This document shows positions 38,406-55,191 of a stretch of DNA of 64,000 bases, one piece after another. The DNA comes from a phage, in sequence record PX969468.1. One strand, written 5' to 3'. The notes beneath the pieces were generated by a model. It ran no database searches. It was not told the DNA's origin and saw only the letters and a list, made by a program, of their open reading frames with translations. Positions within the stretch are counted from its first letter, which is position 1. Every line of letters begins with the position of its first letter. Made by a program: the position numbers and the translations under genes.

Positions 38406-40835
38406 ATGAGTATGTATAGCTTCGATTTTGAGGCCTCTGGGCTTTTGGAAGATCCAGACCTTTATTATCACTGCGGCCTGTTTAAAGCGTTGAATAAGAA
38501 CCGTTTTATGCTGTTCCTTCCTCTAAATGACCGCACACACTACTCCGAGGAGGATATAGAAAAGGCTAAGAACTTCATTCTGGCAAAGAAAACTCTTTAT
38601 AAAGATTTTGAAGTTCGCATAGCAGATTTTTCAGAGTTGGAAGGTTGGCTTACAGGAAATTCTGACTGGTCACCAACAGCTTTGAACTGCCATAACTGCT
38701 ACAGTTATGACTTTATGCTGATGGAAAGATTATCTGGTATTCATTTTGATATGTTCCGTGATCCTAAATGTATGGGGACTATCAACGATCACCAGGTTAA
38801 CCTGTTTGATACGTTGGCGATGAGCCGAATCTTGTGGCCTGATCGCCCTTTACCAAAAGGTTGTCCGGACTCTGTATTCAACCCGGTTACTAAGAAAATG
38901 CAGCCTGTTGGTCCTCACGGCCTTATGGCATGGGGCTACGCCCTTGGTAACCAGAAAGTTCAAATTGATGACTGGCGCGATCTTCCGTTATGGAAGTATG
39001 TGGATCGTGTATTTGAGGACGTTATCATCCAGGAGCTGCTCTGGAAAGAGCTGGTAGCGGAATCAAAAGGTGTATTCTACGGCAAATCTGACATGCAGAA
39101 CTTTATGTACGATCCTGCCAAAGAGAAGCCGAAAGGGTTCAAGAAGATCACCTGGAAGAACGCATTACGTCGAGGCATGTTGCAGCACTTCCTGATGGAG
39201 CTGCAGGCCCGTCAGGGTGTATACTTCGACATAGATGGAGCTATTGCTTTACGTGACCGTTGCGATGCGTGGATGAAAGAAATCGCTGATCGTGTTGAAC
39301 CACAACTGCCTTTAAAAGAGCTGTCAATGTCTCAGCGGCCCAAGTTCCCTGAAAAGCCGTTTAACCAAGATGGGACAATCTCTAATAATGGTTGGAAATG
39401 GTTAAAAGATAAGCTTGGCTATCCTGTGGACATGAGTGCTTTAGAGTTCAAAGCCCCACCTAAGCGAGCATTTACCTCTACAGGAGATGTCAGTAAGATG
39501 GGGATAAAATGGTGTGAAGAGATGGGCTGCAAAGACCACGATAAGATGGCTGATTTCTTGAGAGGCTATATTAAGGGCACCTCCACACCACAACCTTTAC
39601 CTAAAGAGCTAATGGATCAGGCAATAAGTGATCTACAGCAGAAGCGAATGCCGGACTGCAAGATACCTATGAAAATCAGCAATCAGGACGACATTAAGCG
39701 ATACCTGATCAGTGCTGGTTGGCTTCCGACAATGTGGAGAACTAAGGATGTAACTAAAGACAGCAAGAAGAAAGCTTTACCTGATGCAGATGTTGATGCA
39801 CGAGTATATGCATATATGGACGAGCTTTTGGAGTCAGAGTATTGTGACCTAATTATCAACTTCTGGAACAAAACTGATGCTAAGTTCCAGACAACCGTGC
39901 ACAAGTTCCGAAGCTTTCCTAACTCCGAAAGGATTAAAAAGGAAGTATTCGGGAAAATACGTAGAAAAGCTAGGGCACTTATTACTTCTCCGCAACTGAA
40001 AGATACGTTTGGACACCTGTGTCCGAATCTTGAAAAATTGAACGGAGAGATGGCTAAAGATATCGTCTTATGGTTATCATTGCGAAACCGCAGATCGGTA
40101 CTTGATCCAATCAAGGAGGATAAGGTTGACACTGGTCTTCTTAATCACCCACGTTTGAAGATTGACCATAAGCTTCCTGCTAAAAGCTCTGGATTAACAA
40201 ACACTTCCAGACAGAAACACAGTATTTGTGCAAACATGCCTAAACCCTCTCCTAAAGTGGTTATGGGTAAAGAGATGCGTAGCTTGTGGGGTGTTCCTCC
40301 AGGATACTTTGAGATCGGTATCGACGGGTCCAACTTAGAGCAGCTTATCGGGGCTTGGGGTGCCTTTGAGTTCGACAACGGCCTGTATTACGATGTTGTA
40401 AGTAACGGAGACGCACACCAAAACAATGCTGAGGCATATACAAAAGTAGCAGGCAGAGAGGTGTCCCGTAACGACGGTAAACCTATCACGTATGGGGTTA
40501 TGTACGGGGCACAAAAAGATAAAGTTGCAGATATGCTGGACATCTCTCCAGAGTTGGGACAAAGGGTAATCGATGCGCTTTGGGATGCCAACCCTGGTCT
40601 TAAGGGCCGTAAAGAGGATCTGGAGAAATTCTGGGAAGCAACGGGTAAGAAGTTTATCTACTCTTTTGATGGTCATGCCATCTGGACCCGATCTAAACAC
40701 TCTTTACTTAATGCATACCAACAGAATGGTGGTGCATCGCTGTGTGACTTAGTTGGGATACTCATGCACCACCAAATGGTGAAGCGTGGGTGGTACGATG
40801 AAGGTGTTCGTCGTATTATTTATTACCATAAATAA
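38406..40835 (+). CDS. DNA polymerase, family A
   Basis: Exo I FDFEASG, motif A IGIDGSNLEQL, motif B RNDGKPITYGVMYG. Confidence 0.85.
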   Translation: MSMYSFDFEASGLLEDPDLYYHCGLFKALNKNRFMLFLPLNDRTHYSEEDIEKAKNFILAKKTLYKDFEVRIADFSELEGWLTGNSDWSPTALNCHNCYSYDFMLMERLSGIHFDMFRDPKCMGTINDHQVNLFDTLAMSRILWPDRPLPKGCPDSVFNPVTKKMQPVGPHGLMAWGYALGNQKVQIDDWRDLPLWKYVDRVFEDVIIQELLWKELVAESKGVFYGKSDMQNFMYDPAKEKPKGFKKITWKNALRRGMLQHFLMELQARQGVYFDIDGAIALRDRCDAWMKEIADRVEPQLPLKELSMSQRPKFPEKPFNQDGTISNNGWKWLKDKLGYPVDMSALEFKAPPKRAFTSTGDVSKMGIKWCEEMGCKDHDKMADFLRGYIKGTSTPQPLPKELMDQAISDLQQKRMPDCKIPMKISNQDDIKRYLISAGWLPTMWRTKDVTKDSKKKALPDADVDARVYAYMDELLESEYCDLIINFWNKTDAKFQTTVHKFRSFPNSERIKKEVFGKIRRKARALITSPQLKDTFGHLCPNLEKLNGEMAKDIVLWLSLRNRRSVLDPIKEDKVDTGLLNHPRLKIDHKLPAKSSGLTNTSRQKHSICANMPKPSPKVVMGKEMRSLWGVPPGYFEIGIDGSNLEQLIGAWGAFEFDNGLYYDVVSNGDAHQNNAEAYTKVAGREVSRNDGKPITYGVMYGAQKDKVADMLDISPELGQRVIDALWDANPGLKGRKEDLEKFWEATGKKFIYSFDGHAIWTRSKHSLLNAYQQNGGASLCDLVGILMHHQMVKRGWYDEGVRRIIYYHK

Positions 40836-41102
40836 CATTGTGGCTTCATAGAGTAATCTATGTCGAATAACCTCTTTAACTGCGGGAAGCCTAAACCTTA
40901 TGGCAAGGTAATCCGCAACGAAGCGCTCAAAAGAGCGAACGCTCAGAGGCCATTCCGAAAGGAAGTAGACCAGCAAGTGCGGTCGAAATGGGAGGATTCC
41001 TGTGGTTGCTTATCATAGGAATATGAGATGGTCCGATCCTACGTGAAAACGTATGGCTATGCACGTAATGGTGCGGGGTAGCTTAACGACCTACCTGAAC
41101 TA

Positions 41103-41459
41103 TTGGATGAGTACCAACTTCAAGTGCCTGACACACCGAAGTATAAGACTGTGTACACCTTCGACACAATTGAAGAACTGGAAGCATTTAAGGCAGAACA
41201 GGAGGCCAAACTTCATGTGTTCGACGGTCATAAGTACAAAAAGGCACGCAAAGATGAGGACGGAAACGAAGTAGTTGACAGGGACGGAAACACGGTGTAC
41301 GATCCTATCCTGAACGATGACGGAAAGCTTGAACTTATCTGGAGCCCTGTGGGCGAAATGGTGGTGCATTGCTTCTGGCAAGCTTCTAAAATGATGGGCG
41401 TTCCGTTCCAGATCACAGGTGAATACTTGTGTGGTCGTAACTGGGGCGATTGTCACTAA
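41103..41459 (+). CDS. Hypothetical protein (118 aa), start uncertain
   Basis: ORF; weak RBS. Confidence 0.4.
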   Translation: MDEYQLQVPDTPKYKTVYTFDTIEELEAFKAEQEAKLHVFDGHKYKKARKDEDGNEVVDRDGNTVYDPILNDDGKLELIWSPVGEMVVHCFWQASKMMGVPFQITGEYLCGRNWGDCH

Positions 41460-42924: not shown

Positions 42925-42961
42925 TTGACAACAGTGATAGGGCCTAATATAATGGCCCTAT
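42925..42961 (+). promoter_or_regulatory. Consensus sigma70 promoter with -10 embedded in an 8-bp-arm palindrome
   Basis: TTGACA, 17-nt spacer, TATAAT; ATAGGGCC-TAATATAAT-GGCCCTAT. Confidence 0.6.
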
Positions 42962-45872: not shown

Positions 45873-46451
45873 ATGAAATGCAAACGTTGTGGGGAGGACA
45901 AGGAGGCCTCCGACTTCTATACCAGCAACAAATCAACGTGCAAAGAGTGTTGCAAGAAGGCCAGTAGAGAGTCTGACCAATTTGCTAGAGACTCTTCAGA
46001 AAAAGGTGTAATACGCGTGTTGTACAAGGCTCAAAAGTGCAACAGCAAGCAAAGAGGTCACCCTCCTCCGACTTACACCAAGAAAGAGTTTAAGGATTGG
46101 CTATACCTAAACGGTTACAAAGAGTTGTATGACCAATGGGTAGCCAGCGGATACGACAAAAGGAAAAAGCCTTCTTGTGACAGGATAGATGATTTCAAAG
46201 GATACTCTTTTGATAATATCCGTTTAACGACTTGGGGAGAAAATAAAGACAAGCAGACAGAGGATATTCTATTGCATAGAAGCACCAGCGGTAGACGGTG
46301 TAAAAACGTAAGAAGGCTGGACAGGAATGGCAACATTCTCAAAGAGTGGGTATCTCACAACTCTTGTAGGAGAGAAACCGGAATATGTGTTGATTACTAC
46401 ATTCATGAAAAAATTCCAGCCCCCGATGGGTACTTCTATGAATACTTTTAA
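45873..46451 (+). CDS. HNH homing endonuclease
   Basis: N-terminal CxxC..CxxC zinc motif; PSCDRIDDFKGYSFDNIRLTTWGEN resembles HNH_3 core. Confidence 0.6.
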   Translation: MKCKRCGEDKEASDFYTSNKSTCKECCKKASRESDQFARDSSEKGVIRVLYKAQKCNSKQRGHPPPTYTKKEFKDWLYLNGYKELYDQWVASGYDKRKKPSCDRIDDFKGYSFDNIRLTTWGENKDKQTEDILLHRSTSGRRCKNVRRLDRNGNILKEWVSHNSCRRETGICVDYYIHEKIPAPDGYFYEYF

Positions 46452-46466
46452 CACCTAGTTAACATA

Positions 46467-46495
46467 GCCCTGCCCGAAAGGGTGGGGCATTTTTG
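46467..46495 (+). terminator. Intrinsic terminator (identical stem-loop to 35469-35497)
   Basis: GCCCTGCCC-GAAA-GGGTGGGGC followed by ATTTTTG. Confidence 0.7.
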
Positions 46496-46513
46496 TATAA
46501 GGAGATCTGAAAA

Positions 46514-46930
46514 ATGACATTAGAAGATATCATTGTTAAACCTGAGAACTATAACCAATACAATCTATCAACCCAATCTGTGGACCTTGGATGCGCCACT
46601 GTCAGTGCGTGGCTGGTTAACGGAAAAGAGTTGGATAAATGCTTAGAAGCTCACATGACTGTGAACAAGTTCCTTGATGAAAATACTCACTGGCTGGAAG
46701 GTGCAGGTGTATACGCTTCGTGGCTAGAGAGTATGGGATTTGACTACCAATCTGAAGAGGGGTGGTGGAGCTATCTGGCTATCTGTCCAGAGACATTGCA
46801 ATGCTTCATGAAATATTCTGAAGATTTGGAGTACCGGGCGGTGGTTGACAGTGCTATTGCTCGTTATAGCCGTAAACCTTTTTCCCACGACATTAAAACT
46901 GTGGAAGAATTTGTTGAAGTTTTCTGTTGA
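46514..46930 (+). CDS. Hypothetical protein (138 aa)
   Basis: ORF with RBS AAGGAGA. Confidence 0.45.
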   Translation: MTLEDIIVKPENYNQYNLSTQSVDLGCATVSAWLVNGKELDKCLEAHMTVNKFLDENTHWLEGAGVYASWLESMGFDYQSEEGWWSYLAICPETLQCFMKYSEDLEYRAVVDSAIARYSRKPFSHDIKTVEEFVEVFC

Positions 46931-47026
46931 CACAGGTTGTAAGGTGTGCAATTATAACCTTGTAGAGCTGGAGGATGTGATGAACGAAGAAAACTGGGAT
47001 GTGTAACTAACAGGAGGCCACTGCCC

Positions 47027-47224
47027 ATGATTTATCGAATCCGTGTGAGAGAAGATGCACCAGGTTGTTACTTTGACTGGCGTGGGTGGTGGTTTCTCCA
47101 CCCAATGGATGGACTCACAGATAGAATGCTGGATGCTGCCCTTTACACAGATACCGACATAGAGTATAATCTTTACTTGAAAGATGGTATCGATAACGGC
47201 CTGTTTGAAGCAATTCCTGCGTAA
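47027..47224 (+). CDS. Hypothetical protein (65 aa)
   Basis: RBS AGGAGG. Confidence 0.4.
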   Translation: MIYRIRVREDAPGCYFDWRGWWFLHPMDGLTDRMLDAALYTDTDIEYNLYLKDGIDNGLFEAIPA

Positions 47225-47289
47225 GAGAATGTGATCGCCATGTTTTATGATCTTCCTGTAGCACCACCTATTGATCCTGGAGAACTACG

Positions 47290-47709
47290 ATGATTTATGA
47301 AATGCCAAAATTGATCCGTGACGATGCCCAAAACCACACCATTATTATGGGTAAACGCATGAATATCCTTTGCCGTAACGATTTCTGTGGTGTAGAATAC
47401 GTTGCAGACTACTTCGGTGAGAATGGTAAACACCCTGTTCAGTTCTTCCTTGACCATGAGGATAACATTATCTGGGAGTTTGAAACTGAAGATATCCGCA
47501 ACCTCTTCATCTTCCTCGGTGTCAAGGTTAAGGCCAATTTCGCGGAAGGTGAGTGCGACGATTGTGGATTTTATGAGGTGACAGACTTCTATCTCCCGAG
47601 TGGCAAGAACCTTTACTATGAGAGTCACTTCGGAAACACCAACATGCCTCAAAGCTGGGAAGAATTTTTCAGTATCGTAGAAGAGGAGCTGGCATACCGT
47701 GATTATTGA
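47290..47709 (+). CDS. Hypothetical protein (139 aa), overlaps macro-domain gene
   Basis: ORF with two Cys pairs (C..C, CDDC); 11-nt overlap with downstream gene. Confidence 0.45.
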   Translation: MIYEMPKLIRDDAQNHTIIMGKRMNILCRNDFCGVEYVADYFGENGKHPVQFFLDHEDNIIWEFETEDIRNLFIFLGVKVKANFAEGECDDCGFYEVTDFYLPSGKNLYYESHFGNTNMPQSWEEFFSIVEEELAYRDY

Positions 47710-48157
47710 TACTGTAAAGGGAGATTTAATCTCCCTTTTTAAGAGCGGTGCTGGTCACCTAATCCACGGTTGTAACTGCTTCCACACAATGGGTAAGGGC
47801 ATAGCAAAACAGATTGCCCGTGAGTTTCCTCAAGCATTGTCAGCCGACAAAGAGACCAGACACGGTTGCCTAAGTAAACTGGGTGCGTTCTCCCGATGGG
47901 AGCACTTATCTCCGAGAGGTATTGTCTACGGAATCAATCTGTATACTCAGTTCTACCCAGGGCCTAATGCTGAATATTTCTCAATCCTGAAAGGCTTTGA
48001 GCTAGTCAATGAGGTATTCGAGGGATCGACTTTACCATTCTACATCCCTAAGATCGGATGCGGTATAGGCGGTTTGAAGTGGGAGCACGTAGAGGACGTT
48101 ATTAACCTCGCCACTTTTGATATAGATATTATCGTGGTGGAGTACAAAGAGTGTTGA
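47699..48157 (+). CDS. Macro-domain protein (ADP-ribose binding/hydrolase-like)
   Basis: GDL..HGCNCFHTMGKGIAKQI resembles macro NAAN..GGGV..AI; IPKIGCGIGG resembles second Gly-rich motif; GTG start. Confidence 0.6.
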   Translation: MIIDTVKGDLISLFKSGAGHLIHGCNCFHTMGKGIAKQIAREFPQALSADKETRHGCLSKLGAFSRWEHLSPRGIVYGINLYTQFYPGPNAEYFSILKGFELVNEVFEGSTLPFYIPKIGCGIGGLKWEHVEDVINLATFDIDIIVVEYKEC

Positions 48158-48213
48158 CAGCTGACTTTTGAGATGGTATAGTCACCACAACGATTGAGAG
48201 AGGGAGCACCACT

Positions 48214-48414
48214 ATGGAGACTAAAATCTTAATTCTGGCTGTGATAGATACGACCGAAGGGGCCGTGTTCGAATCTGCAGGAGGGTATTTCTACCTGCCC
48301 TACGGAAAAATAACTTCCGAACCGAGTAAAGATTCAATCCTTAAAGTGTTCCCTTGTGCTTTCTGGCTGGAGATTCTGGTAGAAGATTGCAGAGGATTGG
48401 GGAGAGAATTATGA
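48214..48414 (+). CDS. Hypothetical protein (66 aa)
   Basis: RBS GAGGGAG; ATGA overlap with next gene. Confidence 0.4.
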   Translation: METKILILAVIDTTEGAVFESAGGYFYLPYGKITSEPSKDSILKVFPCAFWLEILVEDCRGLGREL

Positions 48415-48605
48415 GAAACAAGAAAGAGCTTTACTCTGGCGAGTGGATCAACGATCAACAGGTCGGAGAGGTAACCTGCTTCCGGTGTTTTACTCGGTAC
48501 AATCTTAAAACTGCACCAAAAAGTGTTCCAAAGACTGACGGTTATTACATAAAAGAACCTCATTGCCCAAAATGTAAATGCCGATTGTACTGGAGCAATC
48601 TATAA
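48411..48605 (+). CDS. Zinc-ribbon protein (64 aa)
   Basis: CFRCF ... CPKCKC. Confidence 0.45.
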   Translation: MRNKKELYSGEWINDQQVGEVTCFRCFTRYNLKTAPKSVPKTDGYYIKEPHCPKCKCRLYWSNL

Positions 48606-48668
48606 GAGGTTGACATCTGAAAACTGCAGTGTATAGTATACACATAAACTAACAGAGAGCGATGTATT

Positions 48669-48860
48669 ATGGTAATTTTTAACCGGGATGGTATCATAGT
48701 TAGACAGCACCCGTTCCTTGAATACTATCAAATTGAGCAATGGTGCTACGGGGATTGCAGTCACTCTTATGGGCAAAGTTGGGGATATCGCACAGTTTTT
48801 GAATCAACAGACCTTGACAAAGTAAGACAGAAAGTTTTAGAACTTATTAACAACAAGTGA
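48669..48860 (+). CDS. Hypothetical protein (63 aa)
   Basis: ORF. Confidence 0.4.
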   Translation: MVIFNRDGIIVRQHPFLEYYQIEQWCYGDCSHSYGQSWGYRTVFESTDLDKVRQKVLELINNK

Positions 48861-48870
48861 GTATCGTGCC

Positions 48871-49203
48871 ATGGTAACATTGGAAAGACGTAAAGCTATC
48901 GCCGCCACACTGGCAGACATCTTTTGGGATTGCAACTTAAAAGATACTCGAAATTGTGGCGCATCTGTAGATGTATTATTCCCACGGCCCACCATTGTTG
49001 CAATGGGAAACCTGCTCGATGTGGTATATGGAGCATGGGACAAGGAAGGTGGATTCTATATCTGGCAACCTGACTACGGGACTTGGAAAGAGGTTAGTGG
49101 TTCTTCGGACTTCACTCCTGCAGTGGCTAAAATGGATAGCTGGAAAATCTATGTCGGTAACGACATGGAACTGAAAGGCGAAATTGTTTACTGGTTACCT
49201 TAA
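48871..49203 (+). CDS. Hypothetical protein (110 aa)
   Basis: ORF. Confidence 0.45.
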   Translation: MVTLERRKAIAATLADIFWDCNLKDTRNCGASVDVLFPRPTIVAMGNLLDVVYGAWDKEGGFYIWQPDYGTWKEVSGSSDFTPAVAKMDSWKIYVGNDMELKGEIVYWLP

Positions 49204-49224
49204 GAAAGTCCAGGAGATAAAGTT

Positions 49225-49470
49225 ATGAACAAAGGGTGGACATTTGTAGACGGCGTTAAAAACATGCCTCTAGGAAAGTATATTGTAGCCATGGCAGATG
49301 AGAATGGCAATGTGGATTTCGGAGCTTGCGAGGTTGTTCTTGCAGGATCTGGTAACTATGTGGACAAAACCGGGATAATTAACGGTCAGTTCTACTTTGA
49401 TCACAACCCTGTTGTAGCGTATATGGCTATGCCAGAGTTCAAGTTCCCAAAGGAGGGTGCAGATGTTTAA
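49225..49470 (+). CDS. Hypothetical protein (81 aa)
   Basis: RBS CAGGAGA. Confidence 0.45.
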   Translation: MNKGWTFVDGVKNMPLGKYIVAMADENGNVDFGACEVVLAGSGNYVDKTGIINGQFYFDHNPVVAYMAMPEFKFPKEGADV

Positions 49471-54884: not shown

Positions 54885-55145
54885 ATGCGTAAATTAAAAA
54901 ATTTTGATAAAGTTGATATTGTCCTGAATAATTTTTACTACTGCAATAACAAGGCCGTTTGGTGGCGTGATAGTTCCACCGATAAAGTCAAGGCGCGCTT
55001 TCTCCAGGGGCACTGGCAAGGCCGCCCAGTGATTAAAATCATGGGGCAATTGGTAGCGTTTAAAAATTGCCGCCGTGTTGATGACGTTGAAGAGATTTTA
55101 AACATTTTGCGCCACAATAATTTAAAAAATAGTGTTGACAAGTAA
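54885..55145 (+). CDS. Early-region protein (86 aa)
   Basis: RBS AAGGAG; promoter-like TTGACA-N16-TATACT at 54827-54856. Confidence 0.5.
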   Translation: MRKLKNFDKVDIVLNNFYYCNNKAVWWRDSSTDKVKARFLQGHWQGRPVIKIMGQLVAFKNCRRVDDVEEILNILRHNNLKNSVDK

Positions 55146-55191
55146 ATCTCAATAAGTATAATTAAAAACACAGGCGGGAAAACTTCCCGCC
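55135..55191 (+). promoter_or_regulatory. Early promoter (overlapping upstream stop) plus leader hairpin
   Basis: TTGACA-N16-TATAAT, then GGCGGGAA-AAC-TTCCCGCC hairpin. Confidence 0.65.

What the first reader, a model, noticed from the sequence alone, without database searches (positions are those of the whole stretch)
47290..48157. Phage macro-domain protein with overlapping upstream partner: candidate ADP-ribosylation counter-defence
47699-48157 carries macro-domain Gly-rich motifs (HGCNCFHTMGKGIAKQI; IPKIGCGIGG). Macro domains bind or remove ADP-ribose; in a phage this could reverse ADP-ribosylation imposed by host toxins or defence systems, or degrade an ADP-ribose-derived signal. The gene overlaps by 11 nt with a 139-aa Cys-containing ORF, suggesting a translationally coupled pair.
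Basis: partly seen in the sequence, partly recalled or inferred. Interest (0 to 1): 0.6.

Follow-up and report, generated by a model that had tools for sequence, protein, structure and literature searches.

The report
Phage macrodomain, likely anti-DarT enzyme
This rV5-like coliphage carries a small ADP-ribose-removing enzyme of the same family as phage T4's recently named anti-DarT factor AdfM, so it is an ordinary member of a known phage counter-defence family, and the overlapping upstream gene shows no sign of being its functional partner.

Summary
Both ORFs exist as described in a Vequintavirus (rV5-like) coliphage. The 152-aa protein is a real macrodomain: it passes Pfam's cut-off, its AlphaFold2 model has pLDDT 96.7, and the best fold matches are TARG1, Poa1p, DarG and SCO6735.

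It is a full-length homologue of phage T4 Tk.4 (40% identity) and RB49 Tk.4 (70%). A 2025 preprint named T4 Tk.4 AdfM because deleting it makes T4 sensitive to the DarTG2 defence system. Several GenBank records already call this gene "macro domain protein" or "phosphatase".

The whole Tk.4 family has an invariant Gln where DarG and TARG1 have their catalytic Lys. SCO6735 has the same Gln, and it still removes ADP-ribose from thymidine in DNA.

The most likely role is early-expressed removal of DarT2-type ADP-ribose from phage DNA. This is inferred from homology and has not been tested in this lineage.

The proposed partnership with the upstream gene is not supported:
- 16 of 40 gene junctions in this block overlap, three of them by 11 nt.
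- The upstream gene belongs to a tiny phage-only family with no recognisable fold.
- Its RB49 homologue lies 9 kb from tk.4.
- Both orthologues are dispensable in phage Bas54.

Verdict: a new member of a known kind, of low to moderate interest.

The parts
47142..47170 (+). Sigma-70-like promoter match (TTTACA-17-TATAAT, 11 of 12) about 120 nt upstream of the 139-aa ORF; inferred early promoter for the two-gene unit
   Evidence: The window holds 19 such near-consensus sites against 1.6 +/- 1.1 in shuffles. Twelve of the 15 plus-strand sites lie in the small-gene block at 41.7-61.9 kb. Promoter function is inferred, not shown.
47290..47709 (+). 139-aa ORF of unknown function (PHROG 8157). It has a variable N-terminal half and a conserved C-terminal module of about 55 aa (EGxCDxCGxYxVxD...LPSG...HFGNxNxP..WxEF).
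47683..47688 (+). Shine-Dalgarno-like GAGGAG inside the 3' end of the upstream ORF, 10 nt before the GTG start of the macrodomain gene
   Evidence: conserved in MaxTheCat, JES2013 and ECP2303.
47699..47709 (+). 11-nt overlap (GTGATTATTGA) between the stop codon of the upstream ORF and the start of the macrodomain gene
   Evidence: The same overlap is annotated in ECP2303, JES2013, MaxTheCat and Bas54. It is one of three 11-nt overlaps among 40 junctions in this block.
47699..48157 (+). 152-aa single-domain macrodomain protein, a member of the Tk.4/AdfM family of phage ADP-ribosyl hydrolases (ALC1-like class)
47774..47776 (+). Codon for Asn26, equivalent to DarG N22 and PhiKZ AdfM N23 (active-site Asn); invariant in the family alignment
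   Evidence: N22/N23 are described as active-site residues in PMC13309987.
47948..47950 (+). Codon for Gln84, at the position of the catalytic Lys of DarG (K80) and TARG1 (K84) and of the essential Gln85 of SCO6735; invariant in the Tk.4 family, including T4 Tk.4
   Evidence: Alignments; the Q85A result for SCO6735 is from PMC9411070.
48053..48073 (+). Gly-rich loop IGCGIGG (residues 119-125), the ADP-ribose diphosphate-binding loop of macrodomains. The position of TARG1 Asp125 is Gly here.
48154..48182 (+). Sigma-70-like promoter match (TTGACA-17-TATAGT with an upstream TG, 11 of 12) overlapping the macrodomain stop codon; inferred promoter for the next small genes

Best explanation
The 152-aa protein is a catalytically competent, single-domain macrodomain ADP-ribosyl hydrolase of the T4 Tk.4/AdfM family. 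It is probably transcribed early from host-type promoters. Its most likely role is to remove the ADP-ribose that DarT2-type toxins of DarTG2 defence systems attach to thymidines in single-stranded phage DNA, so that replication and packaging can proceed.

Catalysis probably follows the SCO6735 style. Asn26 and an invariant Gln84 would position the distal ribose and a water molecule, in place of the Lys used by DarG and TARG1.

The upstream 139-aa ORF is a separate, lineage-restricted early gene of unknown function. It probably shares the transcript and may be translationally coupled, but it is probably not part of the enzyme's mechanism.

Shown here: the fold, family membership, conserved active-site pattern, gene structure, and dispensability of the orthologues. 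Inferred: the substrate, the defence system targeted, and the timing of expression.
For: - **Fold and class.** Pfam Macro scores above its cut-off. The AlphaFold2 model has pLDDT 96.7. The top Foldseek matches are TARG1, Poa1p, DarG, BT1257 and SCO6735. The family profile matches the same set at E = 3e-19 to 1e-14. The PADLOC DarG model matches the macrodomain part at E = 3.3e-14.
- **Family.** The protein is 40% identical to T4 Tk.4 over its full length (pairwise E = 8e-42) and 69.5% identical to RB49 Tk.4. Homologues occur in 2,812 phage records.
- **Function of homologues.** A clean T4 tk.4 knockout becomes sensitive to DarTG2, and the gene was named adfM (preprint 10.1101/2025.11.20.689424). 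PhiKZ AdfM, a more distant macrodomain, removes thymidine-linked ADP-ribose in vitro (PMC13309987).
- **Active site.** N26 and Q84 are invariant in 44-47 family members, including T4 Tk.4. Q84 aligns with SCO6735 Q85. That enzyme cleaves thymidine-linked ADP-ribose on DNA, and its Q85A mutant is inactive.
- **Accessory character.** The Bas54 orthologues bas54_0091 and bas54_0092 are non-essential on E. coli K-12, with 21 of 23 and 31 of 31 TA sites disrupted. Deleted or frameshifted alleles occur in metagenomic Vequintavirus contigs. Intact copies are under purifying selection.
- **Early expression.** The pair is flanked by near-consensus sigma-70-like promoter matches, within a block strongly enriched for them.
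Against: - No Vequintavirus has been tested on a DarTG2 host. A literature search for DarTG together with Vequintavirinae found none.
- At 40% identity to T4 Tk.4, the substrate could differ.
- The T4 evidence is genetic and comes from a preprint. No biochemistry exists for any Gln-type phage macrodomain.
- The catalytic Lys of DarG is absent.
- The residues that align with those mutated in the Poa1p H23A and S30A structures are His23 and Thr30 here, so phosphatase or small-molecule activity is not excluded.
- In the one Bas54 comparison visible in the stored supplement, the orthologue was not depleted (log2 fold change +0.42, q = 1). The host in that comparison is not identified in the excerpt and may lack DarTG2.
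Confidence: 0.6

Rival explanations
1. The enzyme reverses ADP-ribosylation of protein or RNA rather than DNA. The modification could be imposed by other host toxins or defence ADP-ribosyltransferases, or by the phage's own transferases.
For: TARG1 is the top structural match. Macrodomains of this class act on several kinds of substrate. SCO6735 also de-ADP-ribosylates proteins, by a different mechanism.
Against: The TARG1 Lys84/Asp125 dyad needed for Glu/Asp-linked ADP-ribose is absent; the equivalent residues are Gln84 and Gly. No ADP-ribosyltransferase is annotated in the parts of relatives' genomes I read, though I did not survey whole genomes. The only phenotype known for a family member is DarTG2-specific.
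Confidence: 0.15
2. It is a Poa1p-like hydrolase acting on small ADP-ribose metabolites, such as ADP-ribose-1''-phosphate or O-acetyl-ADP-ribose. This is what the historical 'phosphatase / A1pp' annotation of Tk.4 says.
For: The protein matches Poa1p by sequence and by fold. His23 and Thr30 align with the Poa1p residues mutated in the H23A and S30A structures. Several records annotate it as phosphatase or Poa1p-like.
Against: No source pathway for ADP-ribose-1''-phosphate (a Tpt1-type RNA 2'-phosphotransferase) is annotated nearby. The 'phosphatase' label comes from motif-based annotation, not from an assay. This activity does not explain the DarTG2 phenotype of T4 tk.4.
Confidence: 0.1
3. It is a non-catalytic ADP-ribose binder that sequesters ADP-ribose-derived immune signals, such as the Thoeris signals gcADPR or His-ADPR.
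For: Macrodomains bind ADP-ribose derivatives. Type II Thoeris ThsA senses His-ADPR through a macrodomain.
Against: The active-site Asn and Gln are invariant across the family, which suggests catalysis. No phage macrodomain sponge turned up in my literature searches. The T4 homologue's phenotype is DarTG2-specific.
Confidence: 0.05
4. The two overlapping genes form a two-component counter-defence. The 139-aa protein would supply what DarG's C-terminal domain supplies (binding and inhibiting DarT) or would target the macrodomain to DNA, making a 'split DarG'.
For: The 11-nt overlap, shared promoter-like site and internal Shine-Dalgarno site are conserved across the genus Vequintavirus. In the phage collection, the upstream family is found only in the two lineages (Vequintavirus and Krischvirus) whose macrodomains are about 70% identical to each other. 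Family members sit directly upstream of DNA-modification-type genes in three lineages: the macrodomain, dam, and a PP-loop/QueC-like gene.
Confidence: 0.08

Closest known systems
Phage T4 Tk.4 = AdfM (anti-DarT factor Macrodomain; HIDEN-SEQ preprint 10.1101/2025.11.20.689424) and its RB49 orthologue
   Same: Both are single-domain proteins of about 150 aa, alignable end to end (40% identity to T4 Tk.4, 69.5% to RB49 Tk.4). They share the HGCNCFHTMG and NLYTQ motifs and the G-rich loop. Both are orphan genes in a block of small early genes, overlap the upstream gene, and are non-essential in the laboratory host.
   Different: The phage family and genomic neighbours differ: T4 has vs upstream and tk.3 downstream. 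This orthologue has no knockout or DarTG2 data. The T4 evidence is genetic only.
Streptomyces coelicolor SCO6735 (PDB 5E3B) and Bacteroides BT1257 (PDB 2FG1): ALC1-like macrodomains with Gln at the catalytic position
   Same: Gln stands in place of the catalytic Lys (Q84 here, Q85 in SCO6735), and the IGCGxxGG loop is shared. SCO6735 cleaves thymidine-linked ADP-ribose on DNA and protects against DarT.
   Different: These are cellular proteins with only about 22-23% identity in the structural alignment. The loop after the Gln differs (QFYPGPN against QHGMKTG).
DarG antitoxin macrodomain (PDB 5M3I, 5M31, 7OMU) and chimallivirus AdfM (PhiKZ gp104)
   Same: They share the fold, the active-site Asn and the G-rich loop. 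DarG was the best PDB sequence hit for the single protein (E = 8e-8). PhiKZ AdfM is likewise an orphan phage macrodomain, and it removes thymidine-linked ADP-ribose.
   Different: DarG and PhiKZ AdfM keep the catalytic Lys (K80, K78), where this protein has Gln. DarG also has a C-terminal DarT-binding domain and a neighbouring darT gene, both absent here. The NCBIfam DarG model scores 48.5 bits against a cut-off of 250. Identity to PhiKZ gp104 is about 20%.
Human TARG1/OARD1 (PDB 4J5R) and yeast Poa1p (PDB 6LFR)
   Same: These are the top structural matches (TM-score 0.70-0.76) and belong to the same ALC1-like class.
   Different: The TARG1 Lys84/Asp125 dyad is absent. Poa1p is longer (about 180-residue chains in the PDB entries) and acts on a small molecule.

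Membership tests
Macro domain (Pfam PF01661) | Profile match above the curated gathering score | tested here: met
   28.5 bits against a cut-off of 22, E = 1.6e-6. A family profile matches solved macrodomains at E = 3e-19.
Macro domain (Pfam PF01661) | Three-layer alpha/beta/alpha macro fold | tested here: met
   The AlphaFold2 model has pLDDT 96.7 and pTM 0.91. Foldseek returns 170 PDB matches at E <= 0.001; the listed matches are macrodomains or designed proteins (TM-score about 0.75 to TARG1 and DarG).
Macro domain (Pfam PF01661) | Binds or hydrolyses ADP-ribose | not testable with these tools
   This needs a binding or hydrolase assay.
T4 Tk.4 / AdfM family (Gln-type phage macrodomain) | Full-length homology to T4 Tk.4 | tested here: met
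   40% identity over 150 of 152 residues, pairwise E = 8e-42. PHROG 335 gives E = 2.9e-60. Identity to RB49 Tk.4 is 69.5%.
T4 Tk.4 / AdfM family (Gln-type phage macrodomain) | Family-invariant residues (G24, N26, C27, G34, A36, N80, Q84, G120) | tested here: met
   All are present in the window protein, in alignments of 44-47 members.
T4 Tk.4 / AdfM family (Gln-type phage macrodomain) | Loss of the gene sensitises the phage to DarTG2 | not testable with these tools
   This is shown only for T4. The Bas54 orthologue is non-essential on K-12, and I found no DarTG2 challenge of a Vequintavirus.
DarG antitoxin (NCBIfam NF048014, PADLOC DarG) | Catalytic Lys (K80) in the macrodomain | tested here: not met
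   Gln84 aligns with the DarG PTKK lysine.
DarG antitoxin (NCBIfam NF048014, PADLOC DarG) | C-terminal DarT-binding domain, giving a full-length equivalog score | tested here: not met
   The protein is only 152 aa. It matches model positions 2-143 of 338 and scores 48.5 bits against a cut-off of 250. PADLOC matches positions 3-141 of 329.
DarG antitoxin (NCBIfam NF048014, PADLOC DarG) | Adjacent darT toxin gene | tested here: not met
   The flanking ORFs that were profiled match unknown-function PHROGs and have no Pfam hit. Annotated relatives list only small hypothetical phage genes there. Three small downstream ORFs were not profiled.
TARG1-type glycohydrolase | Lys84/Asp125 catalytic dyad | tested here: not met
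   The equivalent residues are Gln84 and Gly, in the GIGG loop.
SCO6735-type (Gln) ALC1-like macrodomain | Gln at the catalytic-Lys position (Q85 in SCO6735), with the IGCGxxGG loop | tested here: met
   In the profile alignment, NlYtQ aligns with NMIGQ and IGCGIGG with IGCGLAGG. The role of Q85 is from PMC9411070.
SCO6735-type (Gln) ALC1-like macrodomain | Hydrolysis of thymidine-linked ADP-ribose on DNA | not testable with these tools
   This needs an in vitro assay on a DarT2-modified oligonucleotide.
Poa1p-like ADP-ribose-1''-phosphate phosphatase | Residues equivalent to those mutated in the Poa1p H23A and S30A structures | tested here: inconclusive
   His23 is conserved, and Thr30 replaces Ser (alignment; mutant names). 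The numbering offset of the PDB chain is inferred. The same His is also present in TARG1 and SCO6735.
Two-gene macrodomain-plus-partner module | The two genes stay adjacent outside one genus | tested here: not met
   They are adjacent only in Vequintavirus. In RB49 the homologue lies upstream of dam, 9 kb from tk.4. Other lineages have other neighbours.

The most novel reading that the evidence does not exclude
The 139-aa upstream protein is a new kind of accessory factor for enzymes that act on DNA bases. Its conserved C-terminal module (CxxC...HFGN) would bind DNA or DarT. Together with the macrodomain it would form a 'split DarG'. In other phages the same module would serve Dam or a QueC-like enzyme, since family members sit directly upstream of those genes and overlap them.
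Probability: 0.07. Interest if true: 0.55.

Novelty: new member of a known kind. Interest (0 to 1): 0.25.

Why it matters
If the assignment holds, rV5-like phages, which are widely considered for therapy and biocontrol, carry a ready-made counter to DarTG2 toxin-antitoxin defence. That helps predict host range on clinical E. coli that encode DarTG.

The analysis also shows that phage "AdfM" proteins fall into two clades that differ at the catalytic position:
- a Lys-type, DarG-like clade (PhiKZ);
- a much more widespread Gln-type, SCO6735-like clade (T4, RB49, rV5-like and others), with homologues in about 2,800 of 50,697 phage records.

No Gln-type phage enzyme has been characterised biochemically. 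The identical protein in BASEL phage Bas57, or its orthologue in Bas54, would be an easy test case.

None of this changes the current picture. It extends a known counter-defence family to one more lineage.

Tried and rejected
1. **A four-Cys zinc site in the upstream ORF.** Rejected. Only C89, C92 and H113 are conserved family-wide, and C33 is Trp in the other Vequintavirus sequences aligned.
2. **Homology of the upstream ORF to anything known.** None was found.
   - Pfam gives only a sub-threshold GCM hit at 12 bits.
   - PADLOC and NCBIfam give nothing.
   - A profile search of PDB sequences returns no hit at E <= 10.
3. **An exhaustive HMMER search for the upstream family.** It returned 13 hits among 1.84 billion representatives. 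The three large proteins among them are artefacts: they sum weak repeats of about 10 bits each around a CGLCGDY-type motif.
4. **A macrodomain gene near other members of the upstream family.** The 151-aa neighbour in locus L012 is not a macrodomain. The neighbour in L010 is a PP-loop/QueC-like protein.
5. **An upstream extension of the macrodomain ORF**, as annotated in phage PMBT16.
6. **A fold search against afdb50.** The library was unavailable.
7. **The first structure job.** I rebuilt the alignment without them.
8. **The Poa1p structure paper.** It is not in the held library, so the roles of Poa1p residues rest on PDB entry titles alone.
9. **An ADP-ribosyltransferase in the phage.** None is annotated in the parts of relatives' genomes I read, but I did not survey whole genomes.

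Full report
**What is there**

The window is an rV5-like coliphage of the genus Vequintavirus. The stretch 46400-49300 is 96% identical to BASEL phage MaxTheCat (Bas57) and 91-94% identical to most of the other listed relatives, out of about 120 records with a match.

Both ORFs exist exactly as described. One runs 47290-47709 (139 aa, ATG start). The other runs 47699-48157 (152 aa, GTG start). They overlap by 11 nt.

The GTG is the only feasible start for the second gene:
- the reading frame opens at 47681;
- the next start codon would remove the conserved N-terminus;
- a GAGGAG sequence lies 10 nt upstream;
- RB49 and T4 homologues begin at the same aligned residue.

The junction sequence is conserved in three relatives. 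The same two genes with the same overlap are annotated in ECP2303, JES2013, MaxTheCat and Bas54. Both genes are under purifying selection, with dN/dS of 0.05-0.23.

**The macrodomain is real**

- Pfam Macro scores 28.5 bits against a cut-off of 22.
- PHROG 335, labelled "phosphatase", matches at E = 2.9e-60.
- An AlphaFold2 model built from 44 homologues has mean pLDDT 96.7 and pTM 0.91.
- Its best PDB fold matches are TARG1, Poa1p, DarG, BT1257 and SCO6735, which together form the ALC1-like class of macrodomains.
- A family profile matches the same proteins by sequence at E = 3e-19 to 1e-14.

This part of the finding is not new. Several GenBank records already call the gene "macro domain protein", "phosphatase" or "Poa1p-like family protein".

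**Which family it belongs to**

A translated search finds homologues in 2,812 of 50,697 phage records. RB49 Tk.4 is 69.5% identical and T4 Tk.4 is 40% identical, over the full length.

Tk.4 now has an assigned function. A 2025 preprint reports tk.4 as the single significant hit when a T4 transposon library was grown on a DarTG2 host. A clean knockout sensitises T4 to DarTG2, and the authors named the gene adfM, for anti-DarT factor Macrodomain. An independent paper gave the same name to a chimallivirus macrodomain, PhiKZ gp104. That work showed in vitro removal of thymidine-linked ADP-ribose.

The window protein is an orphan macrodomain. The DarG models of PADLOC and NCBIfam match only their N-terminal macrodomain part. 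The NCBIfam equivalog score is 48.5 bits against a cut-off of 250. The protein therefore lacks DarG's DarT-binding domain and is not a DarG.

**Active site**

Across 44-47 family members, including T4 Tk.4, residues N26 and Q84 are invariant.

N26 aligns with DarG N22 and PhiKZ AdfM N23. Q84 occupies the position of the catalytic Lys of DarG (K80) and TARG1 (K84). The position of TARG1 Asp125 is Gly.

The same Gln occurs in SCO6735 and BT1257. SCO6735 cleaves thymidine-linked ADP-ribose on DNA and protects against DarT. Its Q85A mutant is inactive, and a water-mediated mechanism has been proposed for it.

PhiKZ AdfM keeps the Lys (K78) and is only about 20% identical to the window protein. Phage "AdfM" proteins therefore fall into a Lys-type, DarG-like clade and a widespread Gln-type, Tk.4 clade. 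The window protein belongs to the Gln-type clade.

The His and Ser mutated in the Poa1p H23A and S30A structures align with His23 and Thr30 of the window protein. A small-molecule phosphatase activity therefore cannot be excluded from sequence alone.

**Context and expression**

The gene lies in a long block of small plus-strand genes downstream of the DNA polymerase gene.

The window contains 19 near-consensus sigma-70-like promoter matches, against 1.6 +/- 1.1 in shuffled sequence. Twelve of the 15 plus-strand matches lie in this block. One (47142-47170) precedes the 139-aa ORF. Another (48154-48182) overlaps the macrodomain stop codon. No terminator-like site lies between them.

I infer a two-gene early transcription unit. 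This has not been shown.

In the relative Bas54, both orthologues are non-essential on E. coli K-12, with 21 of 23 and 31 of 31 TA sites disrupted. Metagenomic Vequintavirus contigs carry deleted, fused or frameshifted alleles. This is the pattern expected of an accessory, conditionally useful gene.

**The upstream "partner"**

The overlap carries little weight. In the MaxTheCat annotation, 16 of 40 plus-strand junctions in this block overlap, three of them by 11 nt.

The 139-aa protein belongs to a very small phage-only family:
- 177 phage records carry it, by name nearly all Vequintavirus- or Krischvirus-type phages;
- an exhaustive search of 1.84 billion representatives returned 13 hits, three of which are repeat artefacts.

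Only a C-terminal module of about 55 aa is conserved, including C89, C92 and H113. The N-terminal cysteines are not conserved.

Its AlphaFold2 model is fairly confident (pLDDT 84.8), but it has no significant structural neighbour. No profile library or PDB sequence search matches it.

The adjacency does not hold outside the genus. In RB49 the homologue sits directly upstream of dam, 9 kb from tk.4. In other lineages its neighbours are a PP-loop/QueC-like gene or small unannotated genes. T4 AdfM works in a phage that has no homologue of this ORF.

Within Vequintavirus the two genes also have different histories. The partner allele in this window differs from the JES2013 and ECP2303 allele by dS of 1.2-2.9. 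The macrodomain gene differs by only 0.1-0.3.

I conclude that the two genes probably share a transcript but are probably not a functional pair.

A speculative alternative cannot be excluded. The partner family might be an accessory for DNA-modification-type enzymes, since in three lineages it sits upstream of a macrodomain, dam or a QueC-like gene. I give this about 7%.

**Verdict**

The macrodomain and counter-defence interpretation is supported by homology to a genetically validated family member. The proposed partnership is not supported.

The most likely mechanism is early removal of DarT2-type ADP-ribose from thymidines in phage DNA by a Gln-type macrodomain hydrolase (confidence about 0.6). 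Fold, family membership and the active-site pattern are shown here. The substrate and the defence system targeted are inferred.

This is a new, untested member of a known kind of phage counter-defence enzyme. The one mildly interesting point is the Lys-versus-Gln split among phage AdfM proteins.

Noticed in passing
window 40820-41055 (+), within the DNA polymerase gene 38406-41459: A group I intron (Rfam RF00028, 64.7 bits, E = 4e-14) interrupts the DNA polymerase gene. The first exon ORF ends at 40835, and MaxTheCat annotates the polymerase as a two-piece join, whereas JES2013 and PMBT16 have an uninterrupted 2,778-nt gene.
   Followed up: partly
window 45873-46451 (+): An HNH / 'endonuclease VII'-type homing endonuclease ORF (PHROG 1035, E = 8e-33). 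It is also present in JES2013, Bas54 and PMBT16, but it is missing from the closest relatives MaxTheCat and A6-1 and from ECP2303, so it looks like a mobile insertion. It sits just after the 408-aa gene whose Bas54 orthologue is scored essential.
   Followed up: partly
window 41700-61900 (+), e.g. 42925-42953, 47142-47170, 48154-48182, 55135-55162: A dense array of near-consensus sigma-70-like promoter matches. The window holds 19 at 11 of 12 or better, against 1.6 +/- 1.1 in shuffles. Twelve of the 15 plus-strand sites fall in the small-gene block and point the same way as the genes, which suggests many short early transcription units.
   Followed up: partly
L009 2501-2866 (Logan ERR11560567 contig, 135.5 kb); proteins P0017, P0020, P0038, P0062: Natural loss alleles in other Vequintavirus assemblies. 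One is an in-frame fusion of the first 54 codons of the upstream ORF to the last 67 codons of the macrodomain gene, joined at a shared 'QFY' microhomology. There are also one internal deletion and two frameshifted macrodomain genes. I did not check whether these are real variants or assembly errors.
   Followed up: partly
protein P0130 (142 aa, metagenomic): A chimeric ORF. Its N-terminal ~88 residues resemble the homing endonuclease family of window 45873-46451, fused to the conserved C-terminal module of the upstream-ORF family. This hints that the endonuclease inserts into, or recombines with, genes of this family.
   Followed up: no
window 47290-47709 compared with L001 6856-7278 and L002 6894-7316: The 139-aa ORF in this window (no amino-acid differences from MaxTheCat and A6-1) is a strongly diverged allele relative to most Vequintavirus: 72-78% protein identity and dS of 1.2-2.9. 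The adjacent macrodomain gene is much closer (dS 0.1-0.3). This implies a recombination breakpoint in or near the ORF.
   Followed up: partly
L006 2327-2758 (RB49), L010 514-951, window 47290-47709: Members of the upstream-ORF family lie directly upstream of, and overlap, three different genes related to DNA modification: dam in RB49 (1 nt), a PP-loop/QueC-like ATPase in a metagenomic contig (17 nt), and the macrodomain gene here (11 nt). With only three cases, and a fourth lineage that has small unannotated neighbours, this may be coincidence.
   Followed up: partly
GenBank MG065644, MG065690, MG065662 and 13 others: Sixteen records named 'Campylobacter phage', with host given as Campylobacter jejuni for 15 of them, are about 91% identical to this E. 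coli rV5-like region over 2.9 kb. They are probably coliphage genomes with mislabelled hosts.
   Followed up: no
window 48354-48605 (+): An 83-aa ORF two genes downstream carries CxxC...CxxC motifs. The 64-aa gene at the corresponding position in L009 (3118-3312) carries a precomputed Pfam hit to PF23903 (Phage_zn_bind_2). I assumed the correspondence from gene order and did not align the two.
   Followed up: no
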